Part shown: piece after piece, positions 15,861 through 16,906 of the stretch
Layout of the letters: the number at the start of each line of letters is the position of its first letter
How positions within the stretch are numbered: the first letter of the stretch is position 1
NCBI RefSeq assembly: GCF_030013205.1
Contig: NZ_CP122648.1
Strand: one strand, 5' to 3'
Length of the DNA stretch: 64,000 nucleotides
Source: Escherichia coli
GTDB taxonomy: Bacteria > Pseudomonadota > Gammaproteobacteria > Enterobacterales > Enterobacteriaceae
The notes under the pieces: model-generated
What the model saw: the letters and a program-made list of their open reading frames with translations, nothing else
Database searches by the model: none
What the model was told of the DNA's origin: nothing
Made by a program: the position numbers and the translations under genes

Positions 15861-15865
15861 TAAAT

Positions 15866-16045
15866 CATGACCATCACCGAAGCCGATATGCTGGAGATGA
15901 TCCGCAGCATTGCCGGAATCAAACAACCTGCAAGCAAAATTAACAGGTGTTCAGCGCCTGTTTCCGTTGTGCTGCAACAGGAACGCCACCAGCAGGATGA
16001 TGTGAGGCCGTATCAGTGGAAGAAACCGGACAGGCCGCGACGGTG
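15866..16045 (+). CDS. Possible small ORF (59 aa)
   Basis: ATG 15866 preceded by AAGGTG; below the ORF-track size cutoff; weak. Confidence 0.25.
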
Positions 16046-16780
16046 AGCGGAGCGTTCGGTAAGGCTACAGCCAAGCCTTACATTAAGCCTACGGGTAACC
16101 CTTCGAAGGGGCTTTAAAGGGGAGATGATTATCCTTACCCGTTGATAAACAAGCAAACCTCAAATTTGAGGTTTGTATCTGCCTGACTTATTTTTGTGCT
16201 AAGTTGTTGATATATCCGACGACGCAAAATTGCGCTGGCTACATCCCTCACATCTGAGGACTGTTAACCAGCAAGCCGGAATATATTCACAAACTACGAA
16301 ATTTTCGCAGTTTAATTACTCGCCAGCTTAATCGCTAACCCGTTGATTGTTCCAGAATCCCCCATTGGGGAAAACTGGAAAACTCACCCTCCAGATTCTG
16401 AATGGTGAAAATCACCGGGGATCTGAATAGGCATTTCCTCTATGGAGGTCGCACCGTTTTCGGGAGAAGGTGCGATCATGTTCGTCATACCTGTTCCGTT
16501 GAAACGGAATACCCCATTCCGGCGTAGCTGGTGGACGCACAGCCACATACGAAAAATTGCATTCAGGAGGGGGGATCGAAATCCCTACAACCTATTGCTT
16601 ATGGGACCGCACGCCTCGTCAAATTTTTACACCCGCGAAAAATACTTCATGCTGGTGGGCATGATGCCGATATGGGGATCCCCATAACGGGTTATCCGTG
16701 ATCATCCACCAGCTTCATTTAGAACTATGCAAATCTGCATAGAAAAATCGTCCCTTCCTGTATATCGCTTGTGTCTATTT

Positions 16781-16838
16781 GTTCCACGTTGTTGCATACA
16801 GTGCACCGAACGGTGTAGTTAATGGTGTAGTCAATTTG
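16781..16838. repeat. Subterminal right repeat, partner of 2301..2353
   Basis: gttccacgttgttgcatacagtgcaccgaacggtgtagttaatggtgtagtcaatttg. Confidence 0.45.
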
Positions 16839-16906
16839 CGATTTTTAACGTTATTTGTAGTGATATTTATCGTTTAAATTCAATAAATTAAATTGTTTTA
16901 ATTATA

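What the first reader, a model, noticed from the sequence alone, without database searches (positions are those of the whole stretch)
15861..16906. About 1 kb of structured, apparently non-coding DNA at the island's right end
No convincing ORF of 61 aa or more lies here; the 81-aa frame 16442..16687 has an implausible composition. The region holds several hairpins (aaacctcaaatttgaggttt at 16159-16178; tcgcacc...ggtgcga at ~16448-16480) and a perfect 18-bp palindrome ctatgcaaatctgcatag at 16724-16741 next to the subterminal repeat. It may encode small RNAs, an excision-control site or a small toxin/antitoxin below the ORF cutoff.
Basis: seen in the sequence. Interest (0 to 1): 0.4.

Follow-up and report, generated by a model that had tools for sequence, protein, structure and literature searches.

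The report
Phage-satellite tail: cos site plus attR
The "structured non-coding" kilobase is the right-hand tail of a 14.7-kb phage satellite inserted in the E. coli comM gene; it holds a small conserved gene, a copy of the DNA-packaging (cos) site of phiP27/SfV-type phages, and the satellite's attachment-site arm, which is ordinary for this kind of element apart from an unexplained array of IHF-site-plus-hairpin units.

Summary
The region is real and more hairpin-rich than chance (fold z-scores -3.9 to -6.0), but it is not one anonymous block. It is the tail of a PICI-type phage satellite (int, alpA, RepA-like helicase, ori iterons) of 14,713 bp inserted in comM/yifB.

It has four parts:
- **Small gene, 15867-16046.** A 59-aa gene with a Shine-Dalgarno site, conserved in Escherichia and Salmonella.
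- **Repeat units, 16047-16546.** About 500 bp of mosaic DNA made of repeated units: an IHF-consensus site, about 10 nt, then a short dyad of variable sequence.
- **cos site, 16547-16662.** Its 37-nt core (16604-16640) carries every position that is invariant in the cos sites of phages phiP27, SfV and ST64B. The 10-nt cohesive-end equivalent is CGCACGCCTC at 16608-16617.
- **attR arm, 16663-16916.** It has a doubled integrase arm motif and the 16-bp core.

The most likely mechanism is that, after excision and replication, the terminase of an HNH/P27-family helper phage cuts the satellite concatemer at this cos and packages it.

I found no known RNA family and no toxin-antitoxin signal, and the 81-aa ORF is not conserved. 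This is a new member of a known kind. The unit array resembles the IHF-linked site inside the roi gene of lambdoid phages, and that is the only unusual lead.

The parts
15867..16046 (+). 59-aa small gene, the last gene of the satellite. It is a shortened member of a ~93-aa family found at the same position in other E. coli satellites.
   Evidence: The ORF has AAGGTG 7 nt upstream of the ATG. RefSeq annotates it as WP_016262941.1. There are 23 homologue clusters, most from Escherichia coli and some from Salmonella; the full-length ones (query coverage 97-100%) are 78-97% identical and 57-67 aa long. The frame is kept in L007 and L009. N- and C-termini match the 93-aa ORF of L010. Weak PHROG hits to phrog_1561 and phrog_7271. 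Function unknown.
16135..16175 (+). Unit 1: an IHF-like site TTACCCGTTGATA (one mismatch to the consensus), then the dyad CAAACCTCAAATTTGAGGTTTG.
   Evidence: The dyad core CCTCA-A(A)TT-TGAGG and its left flank match the site inside the roi gene of HK620-type phages.
16200..16259 (+). Unit 2: a perfect IHF consensus TAAGTTGTTGATA (16200-16212), then the dyads CGCAAAATTGCG (16223-16234) and CCTCACATCTGAGG (16246-16259).
   Evidence: The segment 16200-16416 is about 83% conserved in the tails of unrelated satellites such as L010.
16294..16310 (.). Dyad CTACGAAATTTTCGCAG. It is a perfect dyad in L010 and L039.
16336..16371 (+). Unit 3: a perfect IHF consensus TAACCCGTTGATT (16336-16348), 9 nt, then the hairpin TCCCC-catt-GGGGA (16358-16371).
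   Evidence: The dyad resembles that of the VT2-Sakai roi allele. The motif and dyad position are paralogous to unit 1 (repeat family D10).
16449..16475 (.).
   Evidence: Present in the window, L006 and L007. In L008 the left arm is replaced by other sequence. No evidence of function.
16547..16662 (+). cos region of the phiP27/SfV/ST64B type. The invariant core is 16604-16640. The 10-nt cohesive-end equivalent is CGCACGCCTC at 16608-16617.
   Evidence: 84% identical to the annotated cos site of phage phiP27. The homologous 40 nt lie at the physical ends of the SfV and SfIV records and at the last bases of the ST64B record. The SfI cohesive end TGCCCGCCCC was determined experimentally (PMC3636060). 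A pattern of the invariant positions hits the window once, with 0 expected. The core is 94.8% identical to the tail cos of the cf-PICI L003 and 81-88% identical to those of the satellites L004 and L006-L008.
16667..16690 (.). 24-bp palindrome CCGATATGGGGATCCCCATAACGG, 50-73 bp to the right of the cleavage site.
   Evidence: I11. L008 carries symmetric double changes that keep the dyad (CCGATACCGGGATCTCGGTATCGG). It is also present in tails that lack this cos (L009, L010, L011, L013).
16690..16713 (+). Block GGTTATCCGTGATCATCCACCAGC, nearly invariant, in the distal part of the att arm.
   Evidence: Almost invariant across the window and L006-L009, and recognisable in L004. It is probably a binding site for a recombination accessory protein; this is an inference.
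16725..16742 (.).
   Evidence: Shared with L008 only; other sequence occupies this position in L006, L007 and L009.
16779..16837 (+). Subterminal direct repeat. Its left copy is at 2299-2357. It contains the doubled arm-type motif GGTGTAGTTAATGGTGTAGTCAAT (16812-16835).
   Evidence: (D1). The integrase has an Arm-DNA-bind_3 domain. The co-oriented doubled motifs lie about 85 bp from the attR core and about 148 bp from the attL core. This resembles the arrangement described for HE-PICI attP sites (PMC10111431).
16901..16916 (+). attR core ATTATAAATAGCGGAT. The attL core ATTATCAATAGCGGAT is at 2188-2203.
   Evidence: Joining the two flanks with one core copy rebuilds an intact yifB/comM. That junction is covered at 80% or more in one place in 5398 of 5426 E. 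coli genomes, and the best hits are 100% identical over all 300 nt.

Best explanation
The window carries a 14,713-bp PICI-type phage satellite (2204-16916) integrated in comM/yifB. The finding is its right-hand tail.

**Shown here**
- The tail is modular: a conserved 59-aa last gene, about 500 bp of IHF-site-plus-dyad units, a cos site homologous to that of phiP27/SfV/ST64B-type phages (whose terminase small subunit belongs to the P27 family and whose packaging module includes an HNH endonuclease), and the island-side arm of attR.

**Inferred**
- On helper infection or induction the satellite excises by Int acting at the 16-bp cores.
- It replicates from the iteron origin next to its RepA-like helicase and forms concatemers.
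- The helper's TerS/TerL/HNH complex recognises the mimicked cos. It makes staggered nicks at 16608-16617, producing 10-nt cohesive ends.
- Satellite DNA is then packaged into helper-derived particles. Three copies (44.1 kb) would approximate one phiP27 genome (42.6 kb).
For: **Satellite identity**
- Integrase with Arm-DNA-bind_3 and Phage_integrase domains.
- AlpA, an AAA_25 RepA-like helicase, ProQ/FinO and PerC.
- Origin iterons next to the helicase gene.
- RefSeq annotation of an island whose tail (15861-16906) is 100% identical.
- The boundaries are exact.

**cos site**
- Blastn hit to the annotated phiP27 cos.
- Alignments with phiP27, SfV and ST64B.
- The same 40 nt lie at the ends of the phage genome records.
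- The SfI cohesive end TGCCCGCCCC was measured experimentally (PMC3636060). It is identical in the homologous column of L003.
- The invariant-position pattern is unique in the window, with 0 expected.
- The cos core is the most widely shared part of the 16400-16720 query, which matched 713 of 5426 E. coli genomes. In the three contexts inspected it lies at the right end of a satellite.
- The phage-type tail cos differs from the cf-PICIs' own cos, which lies upstream of their terS.
- Strains A36 and STEC276 carry both a satellite with this cos and a phiP27 HNH-terS-terL module at 99-100% identity.

**Precedent**
- Carrying the helper's cos at the 3' end is the documented packaging strategy of E. 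coli PICIs, P4 and SaPIbov5 (PMC6092414; PMC6739421; bioRxiv 10.1101/2022.09.08.507074).
Against: - Nothing was tested experimentally. No helper is identified for this strain, and the window itself holds no P27-type phage.
- The cohesive-end equivalent differs from phiP27 at 2 of 10 positions. The A at position 4 is seen only in this lineage.
- A close relative (L009) has the same upstream module and att arm but no cos, so the cos module is dispensable or exchangeable.
- The island also carries AAAGTGTCAA repeats next to a 175-aa HTH gene with a weak TerS-like N-terminus. These could be an alternative packaging signal.
- About 500 bp of the region (16047-16546) is not explained by this model.
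Confidence: 0.72

Rival explanations
1. The region encodes one or more structured small RNAs, for example partners of the island's own ProQ/FinO-domain protein or a 3'-UTR that stabilises the late transcript.
For: - Fold energies are well beyond shuffles.
- Short hairpins keep their position while their stems change between units and loci.
- A few stems contain G-T pairs on the + strand.
- The island encodes a ProQ-domain protein.
Against: - No Rfam match better than E = 0.49.
- No promoter-like site inside the region, and terminator-like hits do not exceed the shuffle expectation.
- Both strands fold about equally well.
- Each hairpin sits at a fixed 8-10 nt from a DNA-type IHF consensus.
- The same module lies antisense inside a protein-coding gene, roi.
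- The mismatch counts are too small to pick a strand.
Confidence: 0.1
2. The tail cos serves the packaging machinery of a capsid-forming PICI rather than a phage. On this reading the island would be a satellite of a satellite.
For: - The cos core is 94.8% identical to the tail cos of the cf-PICI L003, closer than to any phage.
- The island's 14.7 kb is close to the 15.4 kb of EcCIEDL933.
Against: - cf-PICIs carry a distinct cos of their own directly upstream of their terS (CGGACACCGACCGCCTCCTCAAATTTTT...) in L003, L005 and L013.
- cf-PICIs L013 and L014 have no tail cos at all.
- The 37-nt core of the tail cos is 35/37 identical to phiP27 in the window and 37/37 in L006.
Confidence: 0.05
3. 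The region is mostly inert. It would be recombination scars and decaying fragments in an accessory-gene hotspot between the last gene and att, and the cos would be a relic.
For: - The mosaic structure is extreme, with sharp junctions and block deletions or insertions between relatives.
- L009 lacks the cos. L012 has an Abi gene downstream of its tail units, and L009 has an extra gene between the AAAGTGTCAA repeats and the small ORF.
- The window's cohesive-end sequence carries two substitutions.
Against: - The cos core keeps every position that is invariant among phage cos sites.
- It is the best-conserved block of the tail across hundreds of genomes.
- Dyads are maintained by symmetric or compensatory changes.
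- The unit architecture is far from chance: 57% of the motifs are followed by a perfect stem of 5 bp or more, against 3.7% in shuffles.
Confidence: 0.12
4. The region hides a small toxin-antitoxin pair or another small-protein system below the ORF cutoff.
For: A conserved 59-aa ORF exists at 15867-16046.
Against: - The ORF matches no toxin or antitoxin family in Pfam or PHROGs. PADLOC was not searched.
- No second conserved small ORF was noted in the region; the other short frames are interrupted by the block differences between relatives.
- The ORF is the shortened form of the ~93-aa last gene found in many satellite types, which is co-oriented with their late operon.
Confidence: 0.03

Closest known systems
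cos sites of E. coli PICIs EcCICFT073/EcCIED1a (Fillol-Salom 2018, 2019; PMC6092414, PMC6739421)
   Same: - Same kind of element: int, alpA, rep/ori, 10-15 kb.
- Same strategy: the satellite carries a cos related to its helper's, so that the helper terminase packages it.
- The cos lies near the 3' end.
   Different: - Those cos sites are lambda-type (cosN GGGCGGCGACCT), and the Rpp protein redirects the helper TerS to them.
- In the lambda-type relatives examined here, two inverted cosN copies flank the Nu1-like gene, upstream of the small last ORF.
- The window has no lambda cosN and no detectable Nu1/Rpp domain.
- Its cos is of the phiP27/SfV type and lies beyond the last gene.
cos sites of phages phiP27, SfV, SfI and ST64B (P27-family TerS plus HNH endonuclease)
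   Same: - Homologous sequence across the cleavage site and about 30 nt to its right.
- All positions invariant among the phages are kept.
- 10-nt cohesive end, CGCCCGCCCC or TGCCCGCCCC in the phages.
   Different: - In the phages the site lies between the HNH and terS genes. Here no terminase or HNH gene is on the element.
- Two of the ten cohesive-end bases differ.
- The left and right extensions (16547-16603, 16641-16662) are shared among satellites but not with the phages.
SaPIbov5 (Staphylococcus) and satellite P4
   Same: Satellites that carry the helper's cos and rely on the helper terminase. For SaPIbov5 the helpers also need an HNH protein (as cited).
   Different: Unrelated sequences, hosts and gene sets. 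P4 has a 19-nt P2-type cos, which is absent here.
Capsid-forming PICIs (EcCIEDL933 family)
   Same: - Same integration sites, with related integrase and att arms; L003 sits in the same comM site.
- Some carry the same tail cos module.
   Different: - cf-PICIs encode capsid, protease, portal, HNH, TerS and TerL, and have their own cos upstream of terS.
- The window's island has none of these genes.
IHF-linked Roi-binding site inside the roi gene of HK022-type lambdoid phages (Clerget & Boccard 1996, PMID 8763934; recalled from memory, paper not readable here)
   Same: - Same module: IHF consensus, about 10 nt, a 5-bp dyad with an ATT loop, then AAGCCGGA.
- 91% identity over 35 nt between a satellite unit (L013) and HK620 roi.
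- The dyad co-varies among roi alleles: CCTCA/TGAGG in HK620, CCTCC/GGAGG in D6, CCACC/GGGGG in VT2-Sakai.
- Two of these dyad types recur in the window's units 1 and 3.
   Different: - In the phages there is one copy, antisense inside a coding sequence.
- In the satellites there are 1-4 tandem copies (usually 1-2) in non-coding DNA, with at least 23 different stems.
- Binding of IHF or Roi to the satellite units is untested.

Membership tests
PICI-type phage satellite (Gram-negative) | Tyrosine integrase at one end, with flanking att direct repeats at a specific chromosomal site | tested here: met
   Integrase domains. 16-bp cores at 2188-2203 and 16901-16916. The rebuilt empty site equals intact yifB in 5398 of 5426 genomes.
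PICI-type phage satellite (Gram-negative) | alpA next to int, and its own replication module (primase/helicase plus an iteron origin) | tested here: met
   Phage_AlpA E = 3e-18 and AAA_25 RepA-like helicase E = 3.5e-44. AAAGTGGG iterons and an AT-rich stretch at 8506-8830.
PICI-type phage satellite (Gram-negative) | About 10-15 kb, without a full set of phage structural, lysis or terminase genes | tested here: met
   14,713 bp. No capsid, portal, tail or terminase families. The only hits are a DUF2213 protein with a weak protease-like match, a transglycosylase-like 679-aa protein, and a weak TerS-like N-terminal HTH in the 175-aa protein.
PICI-type phage satellite (Gram-negative) | Induction, replication and high-frequency transfer dependent on a helper phage | not testable with these tools
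   Requires induction and transduction experiments.
cos site of phiP27/SfV/ST64B-type phages | Sequence homology to the cleavage site and its flanks | tested here: met
   35/37 identity to phiP27 over the core. All invariant positions are present, a unique hit with 0 expected. Alignments.
cos site of phiP27/SfV/ST64B-type phages | Lies at the physical ends of packaged DNA, with a 10-nt cohesive end | not testable with these tools
   Shown for SfI (PMC3636060) and implied by the record ends of SfV, SfIV and ST64B. Not measurable for the island here.
cos site of phiP27/SfV/ST64B-type phages | Adjacent HNH and terS/terL genes | tested here: not met
   None on the island. This is expected for a satellite copy, so I file it as a mimic of the phage site and not as the phage site itself.
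Capsid-forming PICI | Own capsid, protease, portal, HNH, TerS and TerL genes | tested here: not met
   Absent from the island. Present in L003, L005 and L013.
Rpp-dependent lambda-cos PICI | Lambda-type cosN and an Rpp/Nu1-fold protein | tested here: not met
   No GGGCGGCGACCT within 2 mismatches inside the island. The 175-aa protein has no Phage_Nu1 hit, no PDB hit to RppC or Nu1, and no similarity to the Nu1-like protein of L010.
P4-like satellite | P2-type 19-nt cos | tested here: not met
   No match within 3 mismatches. The P4 gene set (sid, delta, psu, alpha) was not searched for specifically; no such families appeared among the ORFs scanned.
Known non-coding RNA families (Rfam 15) | Covariance-model match at or near the gathering score | tested here: not met
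   Best hits are 17 bits against gathering scores of 37-70, E = 0.49-0.98.
IHF binding site | Consensus WATCARNNNNTTR with a flanking A/T tract | tested here: met
   Perfect matches at 16200-16212 and 16336-16348. These are 2 of the 5 perfect matches in 64 kb, where about 0.05 would be expected per kb. The motif recurs throughout homologous tails. Actual IHF binding is not testable here.

The most novel reading that the evidence does not exclude
The ~500 bp between the last gene and the cos site (16047-16546), and the equivalent tails of many E. coli satellites of several packaging types, may be an array of operator-like modules. Each module is an IHF site followed 8-10 nt later by a short dyad whose sequence varies from unit to unit.

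The same module sits inside the roi gene of lambdoid phages. There, from my memory of Clerget & Boccard 1996, Roi binds next to an IHF site. The dyad co-varies among roi alleles.

The satellites would then carry a collection of binding sites for Roi/Rha/Ant-type proteins of different helper phages. Possible uses are sensing the helper, titrating its regulator, or controlling read-through towards cos, att and int after circularisation.
Probability: 0.22. Interest if true: 0.6.

Novelty: new member of a known kind. Interest (0 to 1): 0.36.

Why it matters
**What the finding shows**
- It assigns a function to a kilobase of unannotated DNA.
- It shows that E. coli PICI-type satellites without capsid or terminase genes can carry a phiP27/SfV-type cos. 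The characterised E. coli PICIs carry a lambda-type cos that depends on Rpp.
- This points to HNH/P27-family temperate phages, which include Stx2e phage phiP27 and the Shigella serotype-converting phages, as likely mobilisers of these islands in porcine ETEC/STEC.

**Practical consequence**
- The 37-nt invariant core is a simple marker for predicting which helper can move which island.

**The unit array**
- If it proves to be functional, it would be a new kind of cis-element linking satellites to a poorly understood lambdoid regulator, Roi.

Tried and rejected
**Searches that found nothing**
- Rfam scan at E <= 1: only two chance-level hits.
- Promoter and terminator scan: nothing above shuffle expectation. 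The 16154-16175 dyad scores as a weak terminator on the - strand only.
- 81-aa ORF 16442-16687: no family, and its frame is broken in relatives.
- Lambda and P2 cosN: absent from the island.

**The 175-aa protein**
- As an Rpp or Nu1 homologue: no Pfam Nu1 hit, no PDB hit, no tblastn hit in phages, and no similarity to the Nu1-like protein of L010. Only a weak N-terminal match to phrog_57 remains.

**Ideas tested and dropped**
- The iteron block beside the tail cos in relatives as a TerS-binding cosB: rejected, because the iterons equal each element's own origin iterons.
- The tail cos as the cf-PICI's own cos: rejected.
- The IHF-plus-dyad units as decayed antisense fragments of roi-like genes: rejected for most units. 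They have in-frame stops and share no sequence with roi beyond the module (plus my own reading of the sequences).
- The units as sigma-70 promoters or intrinsic terminators: rejected on my own reading of the unit sequences; the -10 position falls in the dyad and there is no T-run.

**Inconclusive or uninformative**
- RNA strand assignment from G-T versus A-C mismatches: too few informative cases.
- tblastn of the 679-aa protein to identify a helper family: uninformative.
- The Clerget & Boccard paper could not be retrieved.
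Full report
**1. Context**

The window is E. coli chromosome. A mobile element interrupts comM/yifB.

- The 5' part of the gene ends at 2203, and the reading frame resumes at 16917, directly after the attR core.
- The 16-bp cores are ATTATCAATAGCGGAT (2188-2203) and ATTATAAATAGCGGAT (16901-16916).
- Joining the two flanks with a single core copy gives a 300-nt sequence. One place covers at least 80% of it in 5398 of 5426 complete E. coli genomes, under the annotation yifB, and the best hits are 100% identical over all 300 nt.
- The element is therefore 14,713 bp and ends at 16916.

Its gene content marks it as a Gram-negative PICI-type phage satellite:

- A tyrosine integrase with an arm-binding domain.
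- AlpA, an AAA_25 RepA-like helicase followed by AAAGTGGG iterons and AT-rich DNA, a ProQ/FinO-domain protein and PerC.
- No capsid, portal, tail, lysis or terminase genes.

RefSeq annotates an island in porcine ETEC strain ETEC1748 whose tail (15861-16906) is 100% identical. That island is shorter and lacks the 679-aa gene. The hallmarks match the published definition of Gram-negative PICIs (PMC6092414).

**2. The observation**

The hairpins are there, 1-4 nt away from the stated coordinates.

- The fold energy is significantly lower than that of dinucleotide shuffles for 16050-16340 (z = -4.75 on the + strand, -6.03 on the - strand) and for 16336-16550 (z = -3.90 and -2.60). It is only marginal for 16551-16906 (z = -1.99).
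- Both strands fold well, so this is DNA dyad symmetry and not a strand-specific RNA signal.
- The '18-bp perfect palindrome' is a 7-bp inverted repeat with a 4-nt spacer, and it is not conserved.
- The region is not wholly non-coding. 15867-16046 is a 59-aa ORF with a good Shine-Dalgarno sequence. It is annotated in RefSeq. Homologues that keep the 57-67-aa length occur mainly in E. coli and also in Salmonella.
- That ORF is a shortened version of the ~93-aa last gene of many other E. coli satellites.
- The 81-aa frame crosses the cos site and is disrupted in relatives.

**3. Modular anatomy**

I compared the region with 13 annotated E. coli loci and about 90 IMG/VR satellite contigs. The tail is a mosaic of exchangeable blocks:

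- **15867-16096:** the small gene.
- **16135-16546:** the repeat units.
- **16547-16662:** the cos core.
- **16663-16916:** the att arm.

Relatives lack or replace whole blocks:

- L007 lacks 16172-16363.
- L009 lacks everything from 16097 to 16662.
- L007 and L008 have a 280-bp insertion just to the left of the cos core.

**4. The cos site**

- 16566-16640 is 84% identical to the annotated cos site of Stx2e phage phiP27. There it lies between the HNH endonuclease and the P27-family terS gene.
- The same 40 nt occur at positions 4-43 of the linear SfV and SfIV records, at the last bases of the ST64B record, and at position 1 of Burkholderia phage phi644-2.
- For SfI, direct sequencing of virion DNA ends gave the 10-nt cohesive end TGCCCGCCCC (PMC3636060). 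That decamer aligns with CGCACGCCTC at window 16608-16617.
- A pattern made of the positions invariant among the phage and satellite copies (GGACNGCNCGCCNCNTCNNNTTTTTANACCCGCGAAA) matches the window once, at 16604-16640, with zero mismatches and zero expected.
- The 16400-16720 query matched 713 of 5426 E. coli genomes, and the cos core is the part most often covered. In the three contexts I inspected it lies in unannotated DNA at the right end of a satellite.
- It occurs on satellites of different gene content: cf-PICIs L003 and L005, and the non-capsid elements L004 and L006-L008.
- It is distinct from the cos that cf-PICIs carry upstream of their own terS. It therefore mimics the phage site and not the cf-PICI site.
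- Two strains hold both a satellite with this cos and a phiP27 packaging module at 99-100% identity: A36 and STEC276. If independent, about 0.16 such genomes would be expected from 39 x 22 / 5426. That is my own arithmetic on partial listings.
- The island has no lambda or P2 cosN.

**5. The att arm**

- From about 16663 the sequence is shared even with L009, which has no cos.
- It contains a 24-bp palindrome with symmetric compensatory changes in L008, and a nearly invariant block GGTTATCCGTGATCATCCACCAGC.
- It contains the 59-nt subterminal repeat. The doubled motif GGTGTAGTNANTGGTGTAGTCA lies about 85 bp from the attR core, and a co-oriented copy lies about 148 bp from the attL core.
- This is the arrangement reported for HE-PICI attP sites, with a different motif sequence (PMC10111431).

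**6. Mechanism**

- **Shown:** homology, position, boundaries and conservation.
- **Inferred from established knowledge of cos packaging and of PICIs, P4 and SaPIbov5:** excision at the cores, replication from the iteron origin, concatemer formation, recognition and staggered nicking of the mimicked cos by a helper TerS/TerL/HNH complex, and packaging.
- **Size arithmetic (inference only):** three island copies total 44.1 kb, against 42.6 kb for phiP27.

**7. What remains unexplained**

The stretch 16047-16546 consists of co-oriented units.

- Each unit has a motif matching the IHF consensus WATCARNNNNTTR on the - strand. Perfect matches lie at 16200-16212 and 16336-16348, which are 2 of the 5 in the 64-kb window. 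A one-mismatch copy lies at 16135-16147.
- A short dyad follows 8-10 nt downstream.
- Among 106 distinct motif occurrences in satellite tails, 57% are followed by a perfect stem of 5 bp or more, against 3.7% in shuffles. There are 23 different stem sequences, and 55 of 60 spacers are 8-10 nt.
- Under a stricter motif definition, loci carry 1-4 such units, most often 1 or 2.
- The units occur in tails with a P27-type cos, in tails of lambda-type PICIs whose cosN copies lie elsewhere, and in tails with no cos. They are therefore not part of cos.
- One unit type is 91% identical over 35 nt to a sequence lying antisense inside the 5' part of the roi gene of HK620, H-19B and many Stx phages.
- Among roi alleles only 73-76% identical, the IHF motif is invariant. 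The dyad changes in a largely compensatory way while the encoded amino acids change: CCTCA/TGAGG in HK620, CCTCC/GGAGG in D6, and CCACC/GGGGG in VT2-Sakai, which leaves one mismatched pair.
- From memory, Clerget & Boccard 1996 showed that HK022 Roi binds within its own gene next to an IHF site, and that IHF stabilises the binding. I could not retrieve the paper. PMC3430580 confirms only that the Roi of Stx phage 24B shares its N-terminal 125 residues with HK022 Roi.
- This is a lead, not a result.

**8. Verdict**

The finding is an ordinary and now largely explained feature: the cos/att tail of a PICI-type satellite. It is a new member of a known kind, because the characterised E. coli PICIs use lambda-type cos sites with Rpp, whereas this one carries a phiP27/SfV-type cos and no Rpp/Nu1 homologue. 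Interest is moderate-low, raised somewhat by the unit array.

Noticed in passing
window 15574-15840: There are five AAAGTGTCAA copies on the + strand, one inverted copy, and one shorter GTGTCAA copy at 15783. They are interleaved with TAAG(A/G)TTTG-TAAGGT repeats. The block lies between a 175-aa HTH gene (15046-15573, weak N-terminal match to a TerS PHROG) and the 59-aa gene. This is the position where lambda-type PICIs (L010) carry their second cosN. The repeats differ from the island's origin iterons (AAAGTGGG). L009 keeps this block but has no P27-type cos, so it may be an alternative packaging or regulatory site.
   Followed up: partly
L004 3374-3621 vs 5864-5976; L049 366-511 vs 8647-8762; also L003, L005, L007, L008 just left of the tail cos: Many satellites carry a block directly to the left of the tail cos: three direct iterons, AT-rich DNA with an IHF consensus, then three inverted iterons. 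In the two loci where both regions were held (L004, L049), the iterons are the same as those of the element's own replication origin. In L004 both copies end in GTTTTGTATATATATACGAAAAATTG. This is a second, origin-like site next to cos, reminiscent of P4 crr. The window retains only the last 14 nt (16547-16560).
   Followed up: partly
L003 3165-3285; L005 ~3640-3720; L013 ~600-700: Capsid-forming PICIs have their own cos-like sequence upstream of their terS (CGGACACCGACCGCCTCCTCAAATTTTT(A/G)TGCACGGGAAT). It is related to the phage-type cos but distinct from it. L003 and L005 additionally carry the phage-type cos in their tails, so they have two different cos types on one element.
   Followed up: partly
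L010 5779-5790 (+) and 6646-6657 (-); same pattern in about 20 IMG/VR loci: Lambda-type PICIs have two perfect GGGCGGCGACCT copies in inverted orientation flanking the Nu1-like gene. This matches the cos1/cos2 pair described for EcCICFT073.
   Followed up: no
window 3630-3700: The int-alpA intergenic region contains six or so 10-nt-periodic repeats of (G/A)ACAACG (ggacacaacg tgaaacaacg agacacaacg acgaacaacg gcgaacaatc tggaacaaac). This is probably an operator array of the satellite's control region.
   Followed up: no
window 12955-14994: A 679-aa protein (phrog_7694, with a C-terminal transglycosylase-like segment shared with tape-measure and injection proteins) is present in this island and in L007. 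It is absent from the ETEC1748 island, whose tail is otherwise identical. The neighbouring genes 10935-12890 match phrog_6216, DUF2213 and phrog_11810. This is a possible virion-associated or capsid-remodelling module.
   Followed up: partly
L005 (NZ_CP048330.1 2873798-2885889): A capsid-forming PICI is inserted inside the terL gene of a resident HK97-like prophage. This is a helper-embedded configuration like that described in PMC10111431.
   Followed up: no
L008 3722-3770: A (GGCT)n microsatellite of about 12 units lies in the non-coding tail of the comM satellite of strain A36.
   Followed up: no
L009 4232-4365: In place of the unit and cos blocks, this relative has 133 bp with CTACG-containing short repeats (ccactcaactacggaagctactacggtagccactacgattaactacg). 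Their function is unknown.
   Followed up: no
NZ_CP028739.1 (A36) and NZ_CP091022.1 (STEC276): Both genomes hold a satellite with the P27-type tail cos and, elsewhere, a phiP27 HNH-terS-terL module at 99-100% identity. They are natural candidates for a helper-satellite pair.
   Followed up: partly
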